From the IMG/VR virus record IMGVR_UViG_2531839668_000009: DNA of 21,334 nt; one strand, 5' to 3'. The notes below the pieces were generated by a model, which worked only from the letters and a program-made list of their open reading frames with translations, did no database searches and was not told where the DNA came from. Positions 8,562-17,310 of the stretch are shown here, piece after piece; position 1 is the stretch's first letter, and every line of letters begins with the position of its first letter. The stretch comes from a virus. Lineage: Duplodnaviria; Heunggongvirae; Uroviricota; Caudoviricetes. The position numbers were made by a program, and so were the translations under genes.

Positions 8562-9039
8562 CGAATTTCTCCCGTGTAGAGGAACAGAGTTAAAAAGCCG
8601 GAAGCGGAATCAAATCACAGGATGACCATCTGCCAGTGGCTGGTCGTAAAAAAAAGGCCGCGCCATGCGCAGCCGAAAATAAAGGGATAACGATGATAGT
8701 TTGAGAAAAACAGAAATAACACTTTTGTGGCAAAGCATGGTGCCGGGTGCCTCCCGGTGAATTCAGTATCAGCACCTGAATCCGCGATTACCCCATATTC
8801 CTTCTTGCTGATTGCCCCACCGCACAGGGGGATTCACCATGCAGAAGTGTTTTTAATAAACAGCAAACAAAAAAATCAAGCATTATGCAGGCTGTTTCTT
8901 TTTATCACCGGCCACAGCAATACCATAATGCCGCAGACCAGCACCCCATCCGCCAGCACCGACATGATTCTGCTGGTGAAATCCACCATCACCACCAGAA
9001 ACAGCAGGAGTGCAGCCACAGTCAGGCGCAGTTTTACCG

Positions 9040-9472
9040 TCACAGGTAATTCTCCAGACGAAGACCCAGAACACCGGCAATCTCTTCCAGCACCTTGCGC
9101 TCTTCCGGCTCAATTTCGCCGTCTGCCTCCGCAATGGCCACCGCCACATCCAGCACATCTTCCGCTTCACGCGTATCGTGTTTCACATCCTCGATCTCAC
9201 GTAACGCCGCACGACGACCAGTTTTAAAGTTCGTATCCAGCTGACCGATAATGGTTGCGCTAATCGCATTAATTTCTGACGTAAACGCGTACAGCGCAGG
9301 CTGATTACGCAGTACCTGTTCGATCTTCGCTTTCTAGGAAGCCTCACATTCACCATCTGCACAGGCCACCAGGTATGCGGCGTTAATCACCACCTGTGCC
9401 AGATCGCGTTTTTCAAACTTTTTAATTTCCGTTGCCGCTCTGCGGGCTTTTTTTACCAAAAATACCAAACAT
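9040..9472 (-). pseudogene. TerB-domain-like protein gene disrupted by a frameshift in an A7 tract and an in-frame TAG
   Basis: ATG at 9472 with AAGGA RBS gives MFGIFGKK then shifts frame at the A7 run (9448-9454). The body frame contains two acidic DG-x-E motifs (ADGECEAS, ADGEIEPEERKVLEEIAG), has an amber codon at 9334-9336, and ends ...GLRLENYL. Confidence 0.5.
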
Positions 9473-9641: not shown

Positions 9642-9718
9642 TGGTGCGTTGTACTGGGTTCGAACCAGTGACCGATTGCTTAGAAGGCAATTGCTCTGTC
9701 CGGCTGAGCTAAAAACGC
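9642..9718 (-). tRNA. argO: tRNA-Arg (anticodon UCU)
   Basis: Hand-folded cloverleaf on the - strand: acceptor stem with one mismatch, GGTTCGAACC T-arm, anticodon loop CTTCTAA, CCA end encoded. Symbol is by analogy with the Stx-phage ileZ-argN-argO cluster. Confidence 0.75.
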
Positions 9719-9731
9719 AGAATACCGATAA

Positions 9732-9808
9732 TGGACCGCCATCGGAGACTCGAACCCCGCGAAACCAGCTTCGAAGGCTGGCGTTCTATCCCGATGAGCT
9801 AATGGCGG
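9732..9808 (-). tRNA. argN: tRNA-Arg (anticodon UCG)
   Basis: Hand-folded: perfect 7-bp acceptor stem, T-arm CGGGG/TTCGAGT/CTCCG, anticodon loop CTTCGAA, CCA encoded; one mismatch in the D-stem. Confidence 0.7.
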
Positions 9809-9815
9809 TATGTGA

Positions 9816-9891
9816 TGGTGGCCCTTGCTGGATTTGAACCAGCGGCCTGGCGATTATGAGTCGCTCGCTCTCACCACTGAGCTAAAGGGCC
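9816..9891 (-). tRNA. ileZ: tRNA with CAU anticodon (Ile2-lysidine type or Met)
   Basis: Hand-folded: GGCCCTT acceptor, D-arm GCTC/GAGC, anticodon loop CTCATAA, T-arm GGTTCAAATCC, CCA encoded. Ile2 assignment is by analogy with ileZ of Stx-type phages. Confidence 0.7.
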
Positions 9892-10084: not shown

Positions 10085-10120
10085 CATGAAATATATGCCT
10101 TTCAATCTACTTTTGCAACA
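10085..10120 (-). promoter_or_regulatory. Candidate late promoter (pR'-like): -35 TTGCAA, 17-bp spacer, -10 TATATT
   Basis: Sigma-70-like hexamers read on the - strand about 60-70 nt upstream of the tR'-like terminator; any Q-utilisation site would lie here. Confidence 0.4.
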
Positions 10121-10163
10121 CTTTGCTTTGAAAATGCCGCCTTTTGTTTTGAACGCGTTCTCA

Positions 10164-10702
10164 TTACAAACAATAAAGCCTCACTAGCGCAATATTTTTT
10201 GTGCGCTGCTTCAGTATGCTGGTGGCGGTCTGTTCTCCCGGTATGATGTCGCTTTCACGGTATACGGAGCGGATTTTTTCCGCACGCAACCCCAGCGAAC
10301 GACGTAATACCGCTTCCGGTAGCGCGTCCGCCACCTGATTGCGGACCGCCCACCAGGATAATTCAGCCAGAGATAATTCACGCTCCTGCGTACCGCTTAT
10401 TGCGTGACGGATGATGTCAATCATCCAGGCGGCCAGATTCTGTTGAGCAAGTTGATCCAGTGAATCAGATGTCTGCTCCCGCAGCTGGTTGTCGCAGTGC
10501 CAGCACAACACCATCGCGCCGGTACCCGGGATTCACCTTCGCCAGCCAGAAACCAGGTGTGACCAGTTTTATCAACGACGCCATTTCTTTTGAGTTCCCA
10601 CAGCTCGTTGACAGCCTCTTCACGACTGATTCCAAGGCGAGCTGCCACCACATGTGAAGAGGCTTTTTTCAGTGCTTTCAGTGCGTCAGATACGGTTTCC
10701 AT
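10164..10702 (-). pseudogene. Candidate late-gene regulator at the Q antiterminator position, split by a frameshift
   Basis: Two overlapping - strand ORFs (10421..10702, 93 aa; 10164..10514, 116 aa) in different frames. The second frame opens at 10532, so the shift lies in about 10512-10535, around GGTACCCGGG. Q identity is positional only; no Q zinc-finger motif recognised. Confidence 0.4.
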
Positions 10703-11476: not shown

Positions 11477-12703
11477 TCACCCCCTGAATCCCGGCGGAAT
11501 TTCGGTATCCGGTTCAGAAATATGATTCACACAACGCTGGTTGTTCGTGCCGCTTACCGGGAGCAACCAGGGGTTTTCAAAATTCCGGTCCGGCCCAAAA
11601 AACGTCGTCGCTCGCTGAACAAATTCCGTTCCCGCTTTCCCGGTCGCCGCCAGGTATCTCGCGTAACGCCTCACACCATCCAGCATGGTCTCTGGTGGCA
11701 CCCCCTCGCGCAATCTGGCCTTCCAGGCACTGAATGCGGATTTCTTCGGGTTTGCTCCGGCACGCAACGGGTACTCCCGCCAGACCTGTTCGAACACATC
11801 CGGATAATCCACTCGTCCCACAGACAGCCCGGTGTTTTCCGGGACTACCCGATCGGCTTCCCGCTGAATGGCGGAATCGGCTTCAGGCTGCTGCAGTTGG
11901 TGTGATTGCTTCGGCCTTGCGGTCATCACCTGCTGCACAGCGCCCGAATCGGCTTTCAGCGCATACGCTGAATCGGCTTCCGGTGTCGTGCCTGCTGGCT
12001 GACCAGGATTGACGGTCTGAACATCCCCTGCCTGGTTCGTGGTGTTTTTTTTGCCATGAACCATAGTGTTTTTGTCCTGTTCCTGTTCTTTCTCCTGCTC
12101 CTGTTCCTGTTCTTGGCTTCGAAGCCCCTTAAAAGCCCCTTCGAAGCCCCTTACCGAATTTCGGCTATTATTCCGCCTCACATCCAGATGGAAATCCGTT
12201 TTATATCTGTCGTAAAACACTGACAGAAAAGCGTTTTCAGGTAATGATGCATACTCATTCCTGACACCTGCACAACGGTTATCGCCAGGCTTCAACGTTT
12301 CCCCAACCTGCCAGGCTGCCATTTCATGGACCCAGACCATCTCTGCATCATGGTCATAGCTACAAAAACCAGCTTCAACAGCCCTTTTAAGCCCCTTTGA
12401 AGCCCCTTCCAGACCAAGCCCGGTTTCATGAGCAAGGTATAAAACTGGCAGGTAATACAAACCCAGCATATTTGCGTGAGGGGATGTCATCAGGTAAAAA
12501 GCAACAACTTGCGCTTCTGCACCCGCCTTTCTAAGTTCTCTCCCCGTTTCTCCCAGCCAGAATCGCGGAGAAACTTTTGCGTAATCACGCATGGCTACCT
12601 CATCTGGTGCCGAACCTTCCTCCGGATATAATCTGTGGTTCCCAATCGACAGAACCAGAGGAGGTTCGACATGTATTTTTTGAAAAGCCTTTATCAGGCT
12701 CAT
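11477..12703 (-). CDS. Replication initiation protein, lambda O functional analogue (YdaU/DUF1376-like)
   Basis: 408 aa with internal low-complexity SQEQEQEQEKEQEQ linker and iteron-like DNA repeats inside the gene. An alternative start at 12592 (MRDYAKV) has a better RBS. Confidence 0.7.
   Translation of the reverse strand: MSLIKAFQKIHVEPPLVLSIGNHRLYPEEGSAPDEVAMRDYAKVSPRFWLGETGRELRKAGAEAQVVAFYLMTSPHANMLGLYYLPVLYLAHETGLGLEGASKGLKRAVEAGFCSYDHDAEMVWVHEMAAWQVGETLKPGDNRCAGVRNEYASLPENAFLSVFYDRYKTDFHLDVRRNNSRNSVRGFEGAFKGLRSQEQEQEQEKEQEQDKNTMVHGKKNTTNQAGDVQTVNPGQPAGTTPEADSAYALKADSGAVQQVMTARPKQSHQLQQPEADSAIQREADRVVPENTGLSVGRVDYPDVFEQVWREYPLRAGANPKKSAFSAWKARLREGVPPETMLDGVRRYARYLAATGKAGTEFVQRATTFFGPDRNFENPWLLPVSGTNNQRCVNHISEPDTEIPPGFRG
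12117..12410. repeat. Two clusters of three AAGCCCCTT-type direct repeats flanking an AT-richer segment (candidate ori iterons)
   Basis: Cluster 1 at about 12117-12152 and cluster 2 at about 12378-12410, with a simple CCTGTT repeat run and an AT-rich stretch between; all inside the O-like coding sequence. Confidence 0.45.
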
Positions 12704-12809
12704 GTATTAAATGTTGCAGCAACAAACCGCTGGTGTAACAGCCCCGAAATGCTCCCGGATTACAGAGCCTGGCTGCGCGCCGAAACATACCTTCGTCTCG
12801 ACATATTGA

Positions 12810-13319
12810 TTAGCAGACTTCAAAAAGAGACTGCATCCATTCATAACCTTCAGGGTATCGACGCTGTTCGCATTCTGGTATCGCGCCATAGTGCTCTCTC
12901 AATAATTGAAGTGCGTCATCTCTCTTTTTCTGAACTGATTTTCTTGCTTCAACCAGCTCTGGAATCAGCGAATATCCCACCGGAAGTGATCCAATACCCA
13001 CCTCATGTTGACGAGCAGTTACAAGATGTGCCATACAACCAGCGTGCTGGATTGACTCCCTGCTCAGAGGCTGAATGGGATCACTCTCTGCTGAAGAAAT
13101 ACCAAGATTTGTATAATCCTCAATAAGCCCGGCACACGCTTCTGCATCAGCCAGCTTTATTCTGGTTTCCTTGCGCTGTTCTCTGGCTGACAAACGCCAG
13201 AGCAGCGCATTAGCTTTATGTATCAACCACTCTGCCAGCTCCACATCAGATAAACCGCCACGCCAGATGTGCGGACTGTTTTCGTAAACGCTCAGTGTCA
13301 ATTTTTTGTCATTACTCAT
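12810..13319 (-). CDS. Hypothetical protein between the YdaT-like and O-like genes
   Basis: Track ORF 12810..13370 begins at a GTG overlapping the YdaT-like gene; the first ATG (13319, MSNDKK) starts 14 nt after the YdaT-like stop. A + strand ORF (12635..13126) overlaps, and the - strand is preferred by operon context only. Confidence 0.4.
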   Translation of the reverse strand: MSNDKKLTLSVYENSPHIWRGGLSDVELAEWLIHKANALLWRLSAREQRKETRIKLADAEACAGLIEDYTNLGISSAESDPIQPLSRESIQHAGCMAHLVTARQHEVGIGSLPVGYSLIPELVEARKSVQKKRDDALQLLREHYGAIPECEQRRYPEGYEWMQSLFEVC

Positions 13320-13332
13320 ATTTATTACCCAA

Positions 13333-13758
13333 TTAATGCACAGCCAGAGTGTTTCCTGCCGGGCCACCACGATTCATCTGATCGAACAGAACGATCGCTG
13401 ATGCAACGAAATCATCAATATCTTTCACCAGCCGTTCCTTCGTCTCTACCAACTCCCGAAAATAAGCGGAACTGTGGCTGCGCATTCGGGCCACCAGCGG
13501 AGGCGGCATCGCTTTTTCGATCGCTGGTAACAACGCCTGAATTTTTTTAACCGCATCAGGAGTGTCTTTCTCCACCCAGCGGAAAATTTTCTGAGTATTG
13601 CGAGCCATGGCTTCCGGATGGCTGTCGTCATACAGTTCCGGGAACGTCATTCCCAGCTCGAAATACGCTTTGGTAATTTTCGCAGCCGGTACTTTTTCGC
13701 CGTCCGGATGCGCCCAGGCATTCATCGCCATGCGGATGTGTTCATGCTTGATTTTCAT
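13333..13758 (-). CDS. YdaT-like protein (Rac-prophage YdaT family, proposed CII-like regulator)
   Basis: 141 aa, ATG with GGAGG RBS, directly downstream of the Cro-like gene as in Rac ydaS-ydaT. Confidence 0.6.
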   Translation of the reverse strand: MKIKHEHIRMAMNAWAHPDGEKVPAAKITKAYFELGMTFPELYDDSHPEAMARNTQKIFRWVEKDTPDAVKKIQALLPAIEKAMPPPLVARMRSHSSAYFRELVETKERLVKDIDDFVASAIVLFDQMNRGGPAGNTLAVH

Positions 13759-13761
13759 GAA

Positions 13762-14043
13762 TCAACCTCCATCAGCCTTTTTGGTGTTAAGTTCATATTT
13801 GTGACGTGAAGGGGACGTGATTCCCGTGTATTCGGGCCATATAAGCTCCCAGTCATTAGGTCTCAATTCTCGTCTTGTAACATGTCCCCCAGTTTCTGCT
13901 TCTATCATCAACGCACGAACAGGAGACACAGGTGAAGTTCCAGATGCCATTTGGGACAAGAAAGACGGAGACACACCAAGATTGGTCGCAAATTTTTTTG
14001 CTTCTCCAGTTTTTAATGATTTGATGAATTCCTTTAGCGTCAT
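13762..14043 (-). CDS. Cro-like HTH regulator (YdaS/DicC type)
   Basis: 93 aa, divergent from the repressor gene, first gene of the rightward operon. Confidence 0.65.
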   Translation of the reverse strand: MTLKEFIKSLKTGEAKKFATNLGVSPSFLSQMASGTSPVSPVRALMIEAETGGHVTRRELRPNDWELIWPEYTGITSPSRHKYELNTKKADGG

Positions 14044-14145
14044 AATTTTTATCTCAGCACATTTAGAACAAGCAAAAGTTTATTTGCAACTAAATAAACT
14101 AGTCAAGTATTTGCTTGTTTTGCGATTACTAAAGATAATGCATGT
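14044..14145. promoter_or_regulatory. Divergent immunity promoter/operator region
   Basis: About 100-bp AT-rich intergenic region between the divergent Cro-like and repressor genes, with an inverted repeat ACAAGCAAA ... TTTGCTTGT. Confidence 0.5.
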
Positions 14146-14517
14146 ATGGAAACAAAAGAGATTCGGCGTTTACGCCTCAAAGAGTGGTTCAAAGACAGGA
14201 CTTTGCCGCCTAAAGAGAAAAGTTACTTATCTCAGTTAATGAGCGGTAAAGCTACGTTTGGCGAAAAGGCAGCTAGACGTATTGAGCAAACATATGGGAT
14301 GCCTGGGGGGTATCTTGATATGGAACCTGAAGATACAACAGAATCTCCGTCATCAAGAACTATGGCATTAACGCCTAACCAATTGGAATTGTTGCAAATA
14401 TTTAGTGCTTTTCCTGACGCTGAGCAGCAGGAAATCATAAAAGAGCTAAGAAACAAAAAAGAGGCAATGGAAGATCTTGTTGCACGTTGGTTGGCGCGGC
14501 AGGGTCGCCGAGCCTGA
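14146..14517 (+). CDS. Prophage repressor, DicA/RacR type
   Basis: 123 aa; N-terminal HTH and a C-terminal block (LTPNQLELLQIFSAFPDAEQQEIIKELRNKKEAMEDLVARWLA) resembling the DicA C-terminus. Confidence 0.7.
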   Translation: METKEIRRLRLKEWFKDRTLPPKEKSYLSQLMSGKATFGEKAARRIEQTYGMPGGYLDMEPEDTTESPSSRTMALTPNQLELLQIFSAFPDAEQQEIIKELRNKKEAMEDLVARWLARQGRRA

Positions 14518-14547
14518 CGGGATACTTACTAAAACAAGAGATATCAG

Positions 14548-15009
14548 ATGGGCGTACTCGAAATTAGTGCTCTTAGAATTAAGATGCTTCTATTGGCAAA
14601 AGGCTGGAGCCAAGCAGAACTTGCGCGCAGAATTGGTATTGCTCAACAATCCGTCCAAAGGTGGGCTTGTGGCATCTCAAGCCCTACAGCAGCCAACCTA
14701 GATAAACTATCTGATGTGACTGGATTTCCTCAGTATTGGTTTTTCTTACCATTAAATGAAGAAAATAAGGACAGGGCACAGGATATATTAAAAATAACCC
14801 CTACGCAAAAGGAACTACTTCAAACATTTGAGGCATTTCCAGAGGAAGAGCAACAGCAAATGCTTAAAGATATGAAAGAGAAAAAAGAGACAATGGATCG
14901 TATAGTTGCAAAGTGGCTAGCAGCACAACAAAAAGTTCCTAGGCAGGATTACCAGCACTTACAAGACGAGGTTCACCATGAACACGGCCCTTTCACCAAT
15001 GGTTTCTGA
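14548..15009 (+). CDS. Second XRE-family HTH regulator, PaaR2-like, paralogous to the upstream repressor in its C-terminal domain
   Basis: 153 aa; classic XRE HTH (LAKGWSQAELARRIGIAQQSVQRW) and a C-terminal block ITPTQKELLQTFEAFPEEEQQQMLKDMKEKKETMDRIVAKWLA homologous to the upstream gene; 3' end overlaps the antitoxin start. Confidence 0.65.
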   Translation: MGVLEISALRIKMLLLAKGWSQAELARRIGIAQQSVQRWACGISSPTAANLDKLSDVTGFPQYWFFLPLNEENKDRAQDILKITPTQKELLQTFEAFPEEEQQQMLKDMKEKKETMDRIVAKWLAAQQKVPRQDYQHLQDEVHHEHGPFTNGF

Positions 15010-15169
15010 ATTTGAAACCGTCGAGCAAGAAAATAGTTATAACGAATGGCTGCGTGCAAAAGTGGCCGCAAGCCTTGCTGATCCACGTCCAGCCATTCCC
15101 CATGACGAAGTTGAACGCAGAATGGCTGAACGCTTTGCTAACATGCGCAAGGAACGGAGCAAACAGTAA
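14978..15169 (+). CDS. paaA: Antitoxin of the ParE-family toxin, PaaA2-like
   Basis: 63 aa; immediately precedes the toxin with TAA-ATG juxtaposition. Size and sequence agree with my recollection of PaaA2 from the paaR2-paaA2-parE2 modules of O157 prophages. Confidence 0.65.
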   Translation: MNTALSPMVSEFETVEQENSYNEWLRAKVAASLADPRPAIPHDEVERRMAERFANMRKERSKQ

Positions 15170-15457
15170 ATGTTACCGGTTTTATGGCTCGAAAGCGCAG
15201 ATGCCGACCTAGATAATATAACCAGCTATATTGCACGTTTTGACATAGATGCGGCAGAACGTTTGTGGAAACGCTTAAGGACTTGCGTCCTGCCATTATC
15301 TGAACATCCGTATTTATACCCGCCAAGCGACAGAGTGCCTGGTTTGCGTGAAACTGTAGCTCACCCCAATTACATCATTCTGTACCGCGTGACAATTTCA
15401 GGCATTGAAATTGTTAACGTAGTTCACGCCCGCCGACAGTTCCCTGTAACACCTTAA
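15170..15457 (+). CDS. parE: ParE/RelE-superfamily toxin
   Basis: 95 aa; typical RelE/ParE-fold pattern (…YRVTISGIEIVNVVHARRQFP). Confidence 0.75.
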   Translation: MLPVLWLESADADLDNITSYIARFDIDAAERLWKRLRTCVLPLSEHPYLYPPSDRVPGLRETVAHPNYIILYRVTISGIEIVNVVHARRQFPVTP

Positions 15458-15467
15458 TCCCCCTAAG

Positions 15468-15490
15468 CCCCTCTCAAGAGGGGTTATTCT
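15468..15490 (+). terminator. Intrinsic terminator after the toxin gene (CCCCTC-TCAA-GAGGGG then TTATTCTT)
   Basis: GC-rich 6-bp stem with a tetraloop and a T-rich tail, 10 nt after the parE stop. Confidence 0.6.
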
Positions 15491-15512
15491 TGCCAAAGAG
15501 TTAAGTTAAATA

Positions 15513-15540
15513 TTGACTGTTTAGTTTATTTTTGTATAAA
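15513..15540 (+). promoter_or_regulatory. Candidate sigma-70 promoter of the dicB-type operon (TTGACT, 16 bp, TATAAA)
   Basis: Near-consensus hexamers just after the TA terminator, followed by an untranslated leader of about 170 nt before the YdfA-like ORF. Confidence 0.4.
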
Positions 15541-15720
15541 CTGATTTTACCAACCCACTCCGCCCCACAGAACGCAGGGCAATACCTAGAGTTACCAGGC
15601 AGTGGTCAGGGGTTAAGTAGCCAGCCCGAGGCGTAAGAACATGACGGCGGGAACACTTTGTATAACAGCGCAGCAGGTTTTTAGTTCCGCGACCCGGCGT
15701 TAAGGGTAAATGAGGTCAAC

Positions 15721-15873
15721 ATGGATATGCTCAATCTTGGCAACAACGAATCTCTGGTATGCGGAGTATTCCCCAACCTGGACGGCACGTTCACCGCGAT
15801 GACGTATACCAGAAGCAAAACGTTTAAAACGGAAGCTGGCGCGCGTCGCTGGTTAGCAAGAAACTCTGACTGA
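15721..15873 (+). CDS. YdfA/YdaF-family small protein
   Basis: 50-aa ORF found by hand (below track cutoff): MDMLNLGNNESLVCGVFPNLDGTFTAMTYTRSKTFKTEAGARRWLARNSD; position matches ydfA downstream of dicA in Qin. Confidence 0.55.
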   Translation: MDMLNLGNNESLVCGVFPNLDGTFTAMTYTRSKTFKTEAGARRWLARNSD

Positions 15874-15971
15874 TGAAGGTTAGTAATTAAAGAGTTCTCC
15901 ACAGGCGAAGTGGAATACGTTCGCCGGACACGGGTAAGCATCCGGCATGCTCTTTAACAATCTGGGTATTC

Positions 15972-16418
15972 CTAACCACAAAGGAATCGCATCAATTTGG
16001 ATTTTGCAGACAGTTTCTCTTGTTGTTCTACGGAGATTCCTATTTTGATCTGGGTTTTTAAGATTGCGATATCTTTAAGCGACGACCAAATATTATCATC
16101 TGTTTTTTCCAGGAGCTTTAACTGCATTTTCAATTCCGAATCGGAATATTTTTCTGCATCATCATAAAGCTGCAGATATTCTGCGGATTTTCTCATTGCG
16201 TTACCTGACTTTTGTCCGAATCCGTAAATCGTTTGAACGGTTGCTATCACAACAATGAGAACTCCAGAAACTTCAGGAATAAATCCACCAATGACAGATG
16301 AACCGAGGATAATACTCACCACTGAGAGAAGTTTATCGAGACGACCAGTCGCTACAGAGAATAGTTGTTCAAGAAAATAACCATATAAAACCCTGTCAAG
16401 AATATCATCCCGGTCCAT
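15972..16418 (-). CDS. Hypothetical membrane protein encoded antisense within the early-left operon (SieB position)
   Basis: 148 aa, ATG with AGGTGA RBS; two hydrophobic helices (LLSVVSIILGSSVIGGFIPEVSGVLIVVIATVQTIYGF) then a charged helical C-terminal region; AT-rich relative to neighbours. Confidence 0.55.
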   Translation of the reverse strand: MDRDDILDRVLYGYFLEQLFSVATGRLDKLLSVVSIILGSSVIGGFIPEVSGVLIVVIATVQTIYGFGQKSGNAMRKSAEYLQLYDDAEKYSDSELKMQLKLLEKTDDNIWSSLKDIAILKTQIKIGISVEQQEKLSAKSKLMRFLCG

Positions 16419-16477
16419 ATATCATCACCTGCTTGTTTGATTGTTGCTGTTCCCCCTCTCCTCTGAAGGAGCTGGAG

Positions 16478-16666
16478 ATGGTTTTGGTCGAATGTTTTTC
16501 TCAGGTATATGTTTCCTGGTATTCGGAATGTCCGACCTGTCCGCAGGCTTACCAGTACCTGAACAATTCTTTTGAACCACCATATAAAACACCTTCCTGT
16601 TGTTGGGGATATCCAGATTATACAGATTTCCTGTCGTTGGGGAACGACGGAAACCACCTCGCCTGA
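16478..16666 (+). CDS. Hypothetical Cys-rich small protein (62 aa)
   Basis: Internal ATG of track ORF 16433..16666 with a GAAGGAG RBS about 8 nt upstream; contains CPTC and SCC motifs; the 3' part overlaps a 16-bp direct repeat. Confidence 0.35.
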   Translation: MVLVECFSQVYVSWYSECPTCPQAYQYLNNSFEPPYKTPSCCWGYPDYTDFLSLGNDGNHLA

Positions 16667-16893: not shown

Positions 16894-16951
16894 TTCTGGT
16901 GACATTTGGCGGTATCAGTTTTACTCCGTGACTGCTCTGCCGCCCTTTTTT
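16894..16951 (+). ncRNA. dicF: DicF small regulatory RNA
   Basis: TTCTGGTGACATTTGGCGGTATCAGTTTTACTCCGTGACTGCTCTGCCGCCC followed by a T-run matches the DicF sequence as I recall it, with a terminator hairpin at its 3' end; sits upstream of dicB as in Qin. Confidence 0.8.
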
Positions 16952-17121: not shown

Positions 17122-17310
17122 ATGGAAAAGTTATCATGTAATGCCAGCACGTCTGAACTTCGTTTCGAAATTGGCGTTATCACTGGAGACAAAACATTTA
17201 TTGAAGACGCCATTAAGCAGAGAAAACTCGAGCAGGACCTGTTAAATGAAGTATGCATTCCTTCAATGCTGGCTCGTCTGGACCTGCTGCAAAAAGGATA
17301 TAAACAATGA
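17122..17310 (+). CDS. dicB: DicB cell-division inhibitor
   Basis: 62 aa with a GAGGA RBS; shares FEIGV, EDAI and SMLARL blocks with K-12 DicB as recalled; track ORF 17017..17310 starts further upstream but the internal ATG is preferred. Confidence 0.8.
   Translation: MEKLSCNASTSELRFEIGVITGDKTFIEDAIKQRKLEQDLLNEVCIPSMLARLDLLQKGYKQ

What the first reader, a model, noticed from the sequence alone, without database searches (positions are those of the whole stretch)
14146..15457. Three-component toxin-antitoxin module (regulator, antitoxin, ParE toxin) in the rex position, with a regulator paralogous to the prophage repressor
Directly downstream of the DicA/RacR-type repressor and on the same strand lie a second HTH regulator, a 63-aa antitoxin and a 95-aa ParE-family toxin with overlapping or abutting reading frames, matching the paaR-paaA-parE type described in O157 prophages. 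The two regulators share a roughly 45-aa C-terminal block (L-T/S-P-x-Q-x-ELLQ-x-F-x-AFP...WLA) but have different HTH domains. This raises the possibility of hetero-oligomerisation or coupling between immunity control and toxin expression.
Basis: partly seen in the sequence, partly recalled or inferred. Interest (0 to 1): 0.5.

Follow-up and report, generated by a model that had tools for sequence, protein, structure and literature searches.

The report
Tandem prophage repressors upstream of PaaA2-ParE2
This is the lysogeny-control region of a defective lambda-like E. coli prophage carrying the already characterised PaaA2-ParE2 toxin-antitoxin pair; its one unusual feature is a second, foreign repressor gene between the prophage's own repressor (PaaR2) and the antitoxin, which has no predicted binding sites in its own prophage.

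Summary
The four ORFs exist as described. The 63-aa and 95-aa proteins are PaaA2 (59/63 identical to the EDL933 protein) and ParE2 (82/92). The C-terminal similarity of the two regulators is real (BLASTP 5e-17; 25/49 identical in the core).

The first regulator (123 aa, 14146-14517) is the PaaR2 orthologue, which is the published CI analogue of prophage CP-933P. The second (153 aa, 14548-15009) is an extra DicA/Gifsy-class HTH_3 repressor, here called RB.

Homologues of RB are the sole CI-position repressor in other E. coli, Salmonella, Klebsiella and Rahnella prophages. There they sit beside clustered 15-bp ACA-N9-TGT operators. This prophage has none at OR or OL. A natural variant of the same immunity type (NCTC9112) lacks RB yet has near-identical OR and OL.

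The tandem arrangement occurs in 17 of 5426 complete E. coli genomes, in at least five diverged lineages. RB is under purifying selection (dN/dS 0.13-0.24) and its recognition helix is invariant.

The TA and immunity switch are already known. The orphan second repressor is a new variant. Most likely it supplies a second immunity specificity in trans. Mixed oligomers with PaaR2, or a passenger gene, remain possible.

The parts
13333..13758 (-). ydaT, the CII analogue of the immunity region
   Evidence: Pfam YdaT_toxin 1.2e-9. PHROG 163, CII-like activator, 4e-46. 121/141 identical to CP-933P YdaT.
13748..13765 (.). YdaT operator OM (TTGATTTTCATGAATCAA) at the ydaS/ydaT junction
   Evidence: Exact match to the published 5'-TTGATTN6AATCAA-3' motif (PMC9986795). 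It is the only zero-mismatch hit in the window.
13762..14043 (-). ydaS, the Cro analogue
   Evidence: Pfam YdaS_toxin 1.3e-9. 63% identical to CP-933P YdaS. Divergent from the repressor gene.
14044..14145 (.). OR region. It holds a PR-like promoter on the - strand (TTGACT-18-TAAACT, 14106 to 14077) and a PRM-like -10 (GATAAT, 14134-14139) placed 6 nt before the ATG of the first repressor. It also holds GTTTA(G/T)T-type repeats.
   Evidence: The PRM-proximal half is nearly identical to CP-933P. There are no ACA-N9-TGT sites.
14146..14517 (+). RA: the PaaR2 orthologue, a CI analogue that is probably translated leaderless
   Evidence: PDB 7nkv E 1.6e-31. 76.7% identical to EDL933 PaaR2 overall, 88% over the N-terminal domain. 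Its C-terminal domain matches the DicA model at 4e-8. AF2 model: helices 77-87 and 91-122 with pLDDT above 90. dN/dS 0.03-0.14.
14518..14547 (+). 30-nt spacer with a Shine-Dalgarno-like AAGAG; no promoter, operator or terminator was detected
   Evidence: The spacer varies in length (19-35 nt) among tandem loci.
14548..15009 (+). RB: an extra DicA/Gifsy-class repressor with an HTH_3 N-terminal domain, a helical-hairpin C-terminal domain and a non-conserved 22-aa tail
   Evidence: HTH_3 7e-12. DicA model 1.4e-15, below cut-off. 37.7% identical to the Gifsy-1/-2 repressors. Homologues are the sole CI-position repressor elsewhere. dN/dS 0.13-0.24 and helix QQSVQRW invariant. AF2 model, pLDDT 76.6.
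14978..15169 (+). paaA2 antitoxin
   Evidence: PF21217 73.7 bits. 3zbe 1.3e-34. 59/63 identical to EDL933 PaaA2.
15170..15457 (+). parE2 toxin
   Evidence: PF05016 58.5 bits. 5cw7 1.2e-54. 82/92 identical.
15470..15483 (+). Weak terminator-like hairpin after parE2
   Evidence: It is the only terminator-like site in 13700-16000, and shuffles give a mean of 2.7 such sites, so it is weak evidence.
15513..15542 (+). PL-like promoter with the same TTGACT-18-TAAACT hexamers as PR and GTTTAGT/GTTTATT repeats between them (OL)
   Evidence: It mirrors the published PL933P description. The core is identical in the RB-less NCTC9112 locus.

Best explanation
The locus is the immunity region of a CP-933P-like defective lambdoid prophage.

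A PRM-type promoter most likely drives one operon of four genes:
- RA, the PaaR2 orthologue. It is the CI analogue and probably starts on a leaderless mRNA.
- RB, a second CI-class repressor of the short, non-cleavable DicA/Gifsy type.
- PaaA2 and ParE2, the addiction module in the rex position.

RA, with YdaS (Cro analogue) and YdaT (CII analogue), runs the switch at OR and OL, as shown experimentally for CP-933P.

RB was acquired from a heteroimmune ('B-type') immunity region together with the RB-paaA junction and the 5' end of paaA. Its family recognises 434-like 15-bp operators. RB's own predicted site is ACAC-N7-GTGT, and this prophage has none at its promoters. RB is therefore an orphan repressor in cis. 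It is made whenever the lysogenic promoter is on.

Its most likely role is to act in trans as a second immunity specificity, repressing incoming or co-resident phages that carry B-type operators. The adjacent addiction module would help keep the block in place.

Shown here: gene identities, the three architectures, the operator patterns and their absence in this prophage, the RB-less sister locus, and purifying selection. Taken from the literature: the PaaR2/YdaS/YdaT switch, leaderless paaR2 and PaaR2 octamerisation. Inferred: co-transcription, RB's operator specificity, and its function in trans.
For: Identities.

Published switch: PMC8630535 and PMC9986795. The conserved cis elements are present here: GATAAT-N6-ATG, identical PR and PL hexamers, and the exact YdaT operator.

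Three architectures in E. coli:
- EDL933: paaR2-paaA2-parE2.
- TUM1881 and L025-L029: RB-type regulator-paaA-parE.
- Tandem, in 17 of 5426 complete genomes, plus metagenome and draft contigs. The exact RB sequence occurs on at least 1000 contigs.

RB homologues in Salmonella, Klebsiella and Rahnella sit alone at the CI position, with varied cargo downstream.

In the Salmonella and Klebsiella loci, three ACA-N9-TGT sites are spaced 24-25 bp apart at OR and two at OL. The other RB-type loci have one to three sites each. The window has 5 in 21 kb against 5.2 expected, and none at OR, the spacer or OL.

The residue at the position of 434 repressor Gln33 tracks the fourth operator base: Q goes with ACAA/ACAG, R or K with ACAC. 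There is no exact ACAC-N7-GTGT in the window. One-mismatch hits number 9 against 7.1 expected, and none is at a promoter.

NCTC9112 has the same YdaS protein accession. Its OR differs at 3 of 107 nt and its PL core is identical, yet it has no RB.

The RB-paaA junction and the PaaA N-terminus (MNTALSP) are B-type.

Purifying selection holds across diverged tandem lineages. RB dN/dS is 0.13-0.24, and 0.07-0.21 over its HTH domain. Helix QQSVQRW is invariant in 10 loci.

No terminator or convincing promoter lies between RA and parE2.
Against: - No experiment or direct computation shows that RB binds any DNA. Its operator is inferred from relatives only 50-66% identical.
- No sequenced phage in the phage collection has a close RB-type repressor. 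The best hits are 38% over the full length and 53% over the N-terminal domain, with a different recognition helix.
- None of the 17 tandem genomes carries a TUM1881-type immunity region, so no target is in hand. The expected overlap was only about 0.1, so this is uninformative about exclusion.
- A frameshifted copy of both regulators exists (L024).
- The RB C-terminal tail varies in length and sequence.
- The low dN/dS could partly reflect recombination with functional donors that have not been sampled.
- Co-transcription is inferred from sequence only.
Confidence: 0.45

Rival explanations
1. RB is the dedicated regulator ('PaaR') of a self-contained three-component RB-PaaA-ParE module. The module merely sits downstream of, and is read through from, the prophage repressor gene. 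RB would autoregulate TA expression, perhaps together with the PaaA-ParE complex.
For: In B-type E. coli prophages an RB-type regulator directly precedes paaA-parE. The RB-paaA junction in the window is of that B-type. Hallez et al. 2010 (cited in PMC8630535 and PMC3141249; the abstract is recalled from my own knowledge) reported that PaaR2 and the PaaA2-ParE2 complex are both needed for full repression.
Against: In those B-type prophages the regulator is itself the CI-position repressor, with operators at OR and OL. It is not a TA-internal regulator. Homologues in Salmonella, Klebsiella and Rahnella have no TA downstream. In the window no promoter, operator or inverted repeat lies between RA and paaA. 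The RB-less NCTC9112 locus keeps the same OR and OL and the TA.
Confidence: 0.15
2. Hetero-oligomerisation. RB co-assembles with RA through the homologous helical-hairpin C-terminal domain. Mixed oligomers would alter the cooperativity or looping of the PaaR2-type octamer and so retune the switch and TA expression. This resembles SinR/SlrR-type partner switching.
For: The C-terminal domains are 51% identical. Both models predict the same topology, a short helix followed by a long helix. PaaR2 octamerises in solution (PMC8630535). The two proteins would be made from one mRNA. The full-length RB model also aligned to full-length SinR (1b0n), but poorly (rmsd 13.4 over 96 columns); that the SinR tail is a helical oligomerisation hook is my own knowledge.
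Against: The tandem partners are no more alike than non-partners (49-51% in all four cross-comparisons). There is thus no sign of co-adaptation or gene conversion. The most constrained part of RB is its DNA-binding domain (dN/dS 0.07-0.21, against 0.16-0.38 for the C-terminal domain). A purely C-terminal-domain role does not predict that. No interaction was or could be tested here.
Confidence: 0.2
3. Passenger gene. RB is a functionless remnant of an immunity-region recombination, kept only because it lies between the repressor and an addictive TA in a decaying prophage.
For: The prophage is defective: the Q antiterminator and DUF968 genes are partial and TerB is a pseudogene. The RB tail differs in frame and length among lineages. 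A copy with both regulators frameshifted exists. An RB-less locus of the same immunity type exists.
Against: RB is intact in all 17 complete genomes and in at least five lineages diverged to a dS of up to about 0.4. Its dN/dS is 0.13-0.24 and its recognition helix is invariant. Linkage to a TA protects against deletion, not against point mutations.
Confidence: 0.15
4. Antirepressor decoy. Short DicA/Gifsy-class repressors are inactivated by small antirepressors that can cross-react between heteroimmune phages. RB would titrate antirepressors made by other prophages and so protect RA-mediated lysogeny.
For: RB belongs to the DicA/Gifsy class. Cross-acting antirepressors are documented for that class (PMC3121763; PMC10448788).
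Against: No antirepressor gene or LexA box was found in the window. It is unknown which repressor domain antirepressors bind. The strong constraint on the RB recognition helix is not required for a decoy.
Confidence: 0.05

Closest known systems
paaR2-paaA2-parE2 / ydaS-ydaT immunity region of cryptic prophage CP-933P (Sp12) of E. coli O157:H7 (Hallez 2010; Jurenas 2021, PMC8630535; Prolic-Kalinsek 2023, PMC9986795)
   Same: Same gene order and orientation of ydaT, ydaS, OR, paaR2, paaA2, parE2 and PL. PaaA2 is 94% identical, ParE2 89%, YdaT 86% and the PaaR2 N-terminal domain 88%. The GATAAT-N6-ATG start, the PR and PL hexamers and the YdaT operator are all the same.
   Different: An additional 153-aa HTH_3 repressor gene lies between paaR2 and paaA2. 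The PR-proximal half of OR and YdaS are diverged (63% identity), so this is probably a different immunity specificity. The RB-paaA junction is of a different (B-type) ancestry.
DicA (Qin prophage) and the Gifsy repressors GtgR and GfoR: short lambdoid repressors that are not cleaved in the SOS response
   Same: RB has the same size class and the same architecture of an HTH_3 domain plus a small helical C-terminal domain with no S24 peptidase. It is 37.7% identical to the Gifsy-1/-2 repressors and about 28% to DicA. The DicA model matches it over residues 19-130. Its homologues occupy the CI/DicA position.
   Different: RB scores below the DicA family cut-off (57 against 101 bits). Here it is the second gene of the operon, not adjacent to an operator region. 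No cognate antirepressor was identified.
Phage 434 repressor and its ACAA-N6-TTGT operators
   Same: RB aligns with the 434 DNA-binding domain. The 434 contact residues Gln17, Gln28, Gln29 and Ser30 are conserved (the contact roles are from my own knowledge of the 434 complex). The RB family has ACA...TGT palindromes in threes at OR and twos at OL.
   Different: The operators are 15 bp (N9 between ACA and TGT), not 14 bp. The position of Gln33 is Arg in RB. The C-terminal domain is unrelated to the 434/lambda S24-type domain.
Lambda cI-rexA-rexB: a lysogenic operon in which the repressor is co-transcribed with a host-affecting module
   Same: The repressor comes first and is transcribed from PRM. 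Accessory cargo lies downstream, before PL. Both the lambda cI and paaR2 mRNAs are leaderless.
   Different: The cargo here is a type II TA plus a second repressor. Neither repressor has a RecA-cleavable domain.
SinR/SlrR (Bacillus subtilis): XRE-type repressors with homologous C-terminal helical hooks that form heteromers (own knowledge; analogy only)
   Same: Two HTH repressors with a shared small helical oligomerisation domain and different DNA specificities. SinR/SinI (1b0n) was the second-ranked fold match of the RB model, but the full-length alignment was poor (rmsd 13.4).
   Different: There is no sequence relationship in the C-terminal domain, and no evidence of RA-RB interaction.

Membership tests
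PaaA2 antitoxin family (Pfam PF21217) | Sequence match above the Pfam gathering score, and close identity to the solved PaaA2 | tested here: met
   73.7 bits against a cut-off of 27. 3zbe E 1.3e-34. 59/63 identical to EDL933 PaaA2.
PaaA2 antitoxin family (Pfam PF21217) | A small antitoxin with no DNA-binding domain, encoded immediately upstream of a parE gene | tested here: met
   63 aa, with PaaA2 as the only Pfam hit. Its stop codon abuts the parE ATG.
PaaA2 antitoxin family (Pfam PF21217) | Neutralises its cognate ParE2 and is degraded by ClpXP | not testable with these tools
   Needs an experiment.
ParE toxin (Pfam PF05016), ParE2 subgroup | Sequence match above the gathering score, and close identity to the solved ParE2 | tested here: met
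   58.5 bits against a cut-off of 23. 5cw7 E 1.2e-54. 82/92 identical.
ParE toxin (Pfam PF05016), ParE2 subgroup | Toxic activity when not bound by the antitoxin | not testable with these tools
   Needs an experiment.
PaaR2 (CI analogue of CP-933P), tested for the 123-aa protein RA | The PaaR2-type N-terminal DNA-binding domain | tested here: met
   PDB 7nkv and 8c3l, E 1.6e-31 and 4.9e-30. 53/60 identical to EDL933 PaaR2, whose N-terminus MQKKE was confirmed by protein sequencing.
PaaR2 (CI analogue of CP-933P), tested for the 123-aa protein RA | CI position: divergent from ydaS across a roughly 100-bp operator region, with a leaderless start 7 nt after a -10 box | tested here: met
   A 102-nt intergenic region with GATAAT-N6-ATG, as in EDL933. 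The transcription start itself was not measured here.
PaaR2 (CI analogue of CP-933P), tested for the 123-aa protein RA | Binds OR and OL, represses PR and PL, and octamerises | not testable with these tools
   Shown only for EDL933 PaaR2 (PMC8630535).
Three-component paaR-paaA-parE operon as defined for O157:H7 | A single regulator gene immediately upstream of paaA-parE | tested here: not met
   Two regulator genes precede paaA. RB lies between the PaaR2 orthologue and paaA. EDL933 and NCTC9112 show the canonical three-gene form.
DicA subfamily (NCBIfam NF007257), tested for RB | Score above the curated cut-off | tested here: not met
   57.3 bits against 101, aligned over RB residues 19-130. 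RB is DicA-like in architecture but is not a DicA subfamily member.
CI-type immunity repressor of its own prophage, tested for RB | Cognate operators clustered at the prophage's OR and OL | tested here: not met
   The family operators, ACA-N9-TGT, are clustered at OR and OL where homologues are the sole repressor, and are absent from the window's OR, spacer and OL. OR and OL are unchanged in the RB-less NCTC9112.
LexA/lambda-CI type cleavable repressors (S24 peptidase C-terminal domain) | Presence of a Peptidase_S24 domain | tested here: not met
   Neither regulator has a PF00717 hit. Relatives of the RA N-terminal domain fused to S24 do exist elsewhere.

The most novel reading that the evidence does not exclude
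RB is an 'immunity moron': an orphan repressor captured from a heteroimmune phage and expressed from the lysogenic promoter. It would extend the lysogen's superinfection immunity to a second phage group, those with ACAC-N7-GTGT operators. It is physically locked to the PaaA2-ParE2 addiction module, which would penalise its loss. A more speculative extension is that mixed RA/RB oligomers let arrival of B-type operator DNA perturb the resident switch and ParE2 expression.
Probability: 0.3. Interest if true: 0.55.

Novelty: new variant of a known kind. Interest (0 to 1): 0.38.

Why it matters
The TA module and its embedding in a lambda-like switch are already characterised, so most of the finding is a re-discovery.

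The new element is a conserved second CI-class repressor with no predicted operators in its own prophage, lying directly upstream of the addiction module. If it works in trans, it would be a simple way for a cryptic prophage to broaden host immunity against other temperate phages. It would also add a concrete selective rationale for TA modules in immunity regions, namely stabilising captured immunity genes.

The case also corrects annotation. In this arrangement the protein annotated 'hypothetical protein' is the PaaR2 orthologue. The 'helix-turn-helix domain-containing protein' is not the PaaR of the published system.

A natural RB-less sister locus (NCTC9112) and B-type prophages (TUM1881, RM8082 and others) are available, which makes the hypothesis directly testable.

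Tried and rejected
- A scan of the 185,579 species-representative genomes with RB peptide patterns found no relative. I used the protein database and exact-protein contig look-ups instead.
- A first guess at the B-type operator (ACTTT-N-AAAGT, or ACACTTWWAAAGTT), taken from TUM1881 alone, gave only chance hits in the window. I replaced it with the family-wide ACA-N9-TGT pattern.
- I looked for short-range inverted repeats in 13700-15760 that could be an internal RB operator. There were none of 12 nt or more.
- I considered Stx2-phage and phi467 CI as RB targets, because their N-terminal domains are 53% identical to RB's. I rejected this: their recognition helix is SAQSVQYW and their OR lacks ACA-N9-TGT. 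Their downstream 'second regulator' belongs to an unrelated family.
- The fold search of the RB model against the PDB gave close matches (rmsd about 1-3) only to the HTH domain; full-length alignments were poor. The C-terminal domain has no solved relative (sequence search).
- A search with the C-terminal domain alone against 1.84 billion representatives found only 11 proteins. That is too few to map domain combinations.
- I tested for co-residence of a TUM1881-type immunity region in the 17 tandem genomes. There is none, but the expected number was only about 0.1, so the result is uninformative.
- A LexA-box search of the window found none.
- De Bruyn et al. 2019 on PaaR2 oligomerisation is not held in the library.
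- I could not retrieve the PaaR1 sequence of O157:H7. Whether RB is PaaR1-like is left open.
Full report
**1. What is there**

The window matches a prophage next to yccA in E. coli O157:H16 strain 98-3133 at 100% identity over the 3.5 kb compared, window 13000-16500. Around the finding the genes are:
- ydaT, 13333-13758, minus strand
- ydaS, 13762-14043, minus strand
- a 102-nt intergenic region
- a 123-aa ORF, 14146-14517, plus strand, here called RA
- a 153-aa HTH_3 ORF, 14548-15009, plus strand, here called RB
- a 63-aa ORF, 14978-15169, plus strand
- a 95-aa ORF, 15170-15457, plus strand

The 63-aa protein is PaaA2. It scores 73.7 bits on PF21217, matches PDB 3zbe at E 1.3e-34, and is 59/63 identical to the EDL933 protein. 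The 95-aa protein is ParE2. It scores 58.5 bits on PF05016, matches 5cw7 at E 1.2e-54, and is 82/92 identical.

The two regulators share a C-terminal block. BLASTP gives E 5e-17, the core is 25/49 identical, and hhalign gives probability 98.5%.

**2. Which regulator is which**

RA has no Pfam hit. Its first 63 residues match PDB 7nkv/8c3l, 'Phage repressor protein CI', at E 1.6e-31. That PDB chain matches the N-terminal residues of the protein encoded upstream of paaA2 in EDL933. Its N-terminus, MQKKE, was verified experimentally as that of PaaR2 (PMC8630535).

RA is 76.7% identical to PaaR2 overall and 88% over the N-terminal domain. It keeps the same -10 box followed by six bases and the ATG (GATAAT-N6-ATG), the arrangement that makes paaR2 leaderless.

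RA is therefore the PaaR2 orthologue. In the published system PaaR2 is both the prophage's CI analogue and the 'third component' of the TA. The rest of the CP-933P switch is also present:
- a PR-like and a PL-like promoter with identical hexamers, TTGACT-18-TAAACT (14106 to 14077 on the minus strand; 15513-15542 on the plus strand), as described for PR933P and PL933P
- GTTTA(G/T)T-type repeats inside both
- an exact copy of the YdaT operator, TTGATTN6AATCAA, at the ydaS/ydaT junction, 13748-13765

**3. RB is an extra gene**

EDL933 has paaR2 followed directly by paaA2-parE2. Strain TUM1881 and many other E. coli have instead an RB-type HTH_3 regulator of 132 aa, 65% identical to RB. It is divergent from a different ydaS and is followed by paaA-parE.

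The window type has both regulators in tandem. This is true of 17 of 5426 complete E. coli genomes. It is also true of every contig found for the relatives at least 88% identical to RB whose contexts were examined (P0002, P0003). The exact RB and RA sequences each occur on at least 1000 contigs of the large collection.

Homologues 50-60% identical to RB in Salmonella, Klebsiella and Rahnella are the only gene at the CI position. They sit opposite ydaS-ydaT, with unrelated cargo downstream.

RB is 37.7% identical to the Gifsy-1/-2 repressors and about 28% identical to DicA. The NCBIfam DicA model matches RB over residues 19-130, but matches only the C-terminal domain of RA. Both scores are below the curated cut-off. 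Both proteins fall in phrog_5736.

The N-terminal domain of each also occurs elsewhere fused to an S24 peptidase domain. Both proteins are therefore modular CI-class repressors of the short, non-cleavable DicA/Gifsy type. That class is inactivated by antirepressors rather than by RecA-stimulated cleavage (PMC3121763, PMC10448788).

The shared C-terminal domain is a trait of that class. RA and RB within the window are 51% identical there. PaaR2 of EDL933 and the TUM1881 regulator are 50% identical there.

AlphaFold models give the same C-terminal topology in both proteins, a short helix and then a long helix (RB 85-95 and 99-128; RA 77-87 and 91-122). No solved structure covers this domain.

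**4. RB has no operators in its own prophage**

Where RB-family proteins are the sole repressor, 15-bp ACA-N9-TGT palindromes cluster at OR and OL. In the Salmonella and Klebsiella loci there are three at OR, 24-25 bp apart, and two at OL. This compares with about 1.3 expected by chance in the whole 5.4-kb locus. The Rahnella, TUM1881 and related loci have one to three exact sites each.

RB aligns with the 434 repressor DNA-binding domain, and 434 residues Gln17, Gln28, Gln29 and Ser30 are conserved. The residue at the position of 434 Gln33 tracks the fourth operator base. Q goes with ACAA or ACAG. R or K goes with ACAC...GTGT. RB has R, so its predicted site is ACAC-N7-GTGT.

The window contains no exact copy of that site. 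One-mismatch copies number 9 against 7.1 expected, and none lies in OR, the RA-RB spacer or OL. ACA-N9-TGT occurs 5 times in 21 kb against 5.2 expected.

Strain NCTC9112 is a natural control. It has the same YdaS protein accession. Its OR differs at 3 of 107 positions and its PL/OL core is identical. Yet it goes straight from RA to paaA-parE. The presence of RB is therefore not accompanied by any new cis element.

**5. Origin**

Homology between the window and NCTC9112 stops exactly at the RA stop codon. The RB-paaA junction and the PaaA N-terminus (MNTALSP) resemble TUM1881. The A-type junction has GGAGG and gives MNRALSP.

A block comprising RB, the junction and at least the start of paaA was therefore imported from a B-type immunity region. 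The right-hand crossover was plausibly within the TA genes, which are 82-95% identical between the types. The left-hand join was illegitimate.

The event is old. The window's RB is only 69% identical in DNA to the nearest stand-alone relative. The tandem loci themselves have diverged to 88% DNA identity (GF60).

**6. Is RB maintained?**

RB is intact across four compared tandem lineages, with dN/dS 0.13-0.24. Its HTH domain is the more constrained part (0.07-0.21). RA gives 0.03-0.14. The recognition helix QQSVQRW is invariant in all 10 tandem loci examined.

Against this, one assembled contig has frameshifts in both regulators. The RB C-terminal tail is also unstable. The 153-aa form differs by a 1-nt indel near the stop from the 131-aa SCU-171 form, and runs 32 nt into paaA; I did not establish which state is ancestral. 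Other lineages end at 131, 132 or 139 aa.

**7. Mechanism**

Most likely, PRM transcribes RA-RB-paaA2-parE2 as one unit. No terminator and no convincing promoter lie between the genes. A Shine-Dalgarno-like AAGAG precedes RB. The only terminator-like hairpin, at 15470-15483, follows parE2.

RA, YdaS and YdaT would operate the switch as published. RB would be produced in every lysogenic cell but would have nothing to bind in cis.

The best-supported role is a second immunity specificity acting in trans on phages with B-type operators. TUM1881-type immunity regions occur in 36 of 5426 genomes. They come from the same bovine and chicken strain collections as some tandem strains, but never from the same genome. 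The expected overlap was only about 0.1.

The rivals are as follows:
- mixed RA/RB oligomers, which are plausible from the shared domain and PaaR2 octamerisation, but show no sign of co-adaptation
- a passenger gene, which the purifying selection argues against
- an antirepressor decoy

**8. Verdict**

The TA module, its rex-like position and its coupling to the immunity switch are already known. The tandem, orphan second repressor is a new variant of that known system. I found no description of it in the searched literature. Interest is moderate, and the hypothesis can be tested directly with available natural strains.

Noticed in passing
window 16894-16945 (+): DicF antisense sRNA (Rfam RF00039, 77 bits against a gathering score of 48). 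It lies upstream of dicB (about 17122-17310) and downstream of the PL-like promoter. PL therefore presumably drives a ydfA(DUF1391)...dicF-dicB operon, as in Qin.
   Followed up: partly
window 8699-8871 (-) and 9645-9891 (-): STnc100 sRNA (RF02076, 100.8 bits) and three tRNA genes, annotated Arg, Arg and Ile in the identical RefSeq record. They lie in the late-region leader, as is typical of Stx-phage-like prophages.
   Followed up: no
window about 10100-10700 and about 9040-9470 (from the annotation of L001): The prophage looks defective. The antiterminator Q and a DUF968 gene are annotated as partial, and a TerB-family gene has an internal stop. It is thus a cryptic prophage like CP-933P.
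   Followed up: no
window 14930-15009: A 1-nt length difference from strain SCU-171 (AAAGTT-CCTAGG against AAAGTTACCTAG) means RB has no stop after residue 131 here. It gains a 22-aa non-conserved tail that is translated across the paaA2 ribosome-binding site and start codon. This could alter translation of the antitoxin.
   Followed up: partly
L030 (E. coli NCTC9112, NZ_LR134079.1 3376279-3377150): A natural sister locus of the same immunity type that lacks RB. The YdaS accession is identical, and OR and OL are near-identical. It would serve as an isogenic-like control.
   Followed up: yes
L013 2426-2489 and 3485-3523; L016 2426-2489 and 4083-4120; L021 4074-4117: The stand-alone RB-family repressors have 434-like 15-bp ACA-N9-TGT operators. 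The fourth base co-varies with one recognition-helix residue: Q with A or G, R or K with C. This is a small specificity code for the family that I did not find described in the papers read here.
   Followed up: partly
L020 1501-2765 (phage phi467) and L019 1474-3013 (Stx2d phage Stx2_112808): These phages also have a second HTH regulator directly downstream of an S24-type CI, in the rex position. It belongs to an unrelated family, with one or two C-terminal HTH units. Second regulators after cI may be a recurrent theme.
   Followed up: partly
L024 948-1591 (Logan contig SRR22784864_3337): A tandem locus in which both RA and RB carry frameshifts. The 78-aa RB fragment represents a cluster of 198 sequences. 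I did not resolve whether this is real decay or assembly error.
   Followed up: no
window 15972-16418 (-) and 12635-13126 (+): Two ORFs lie on the strand opposite to their neighbours. One is a 148-aa hypothetical protein with no Pfam hit, between DUF1391 and dicF. The other is a 163-aa ORF (12635-13126); RefSeq annotates an 'ECs1072 family phage-associated protein' of about 151 aa within it, between the replication genes and ydaT. Both look like morons of unknown function.
   Followed up: no
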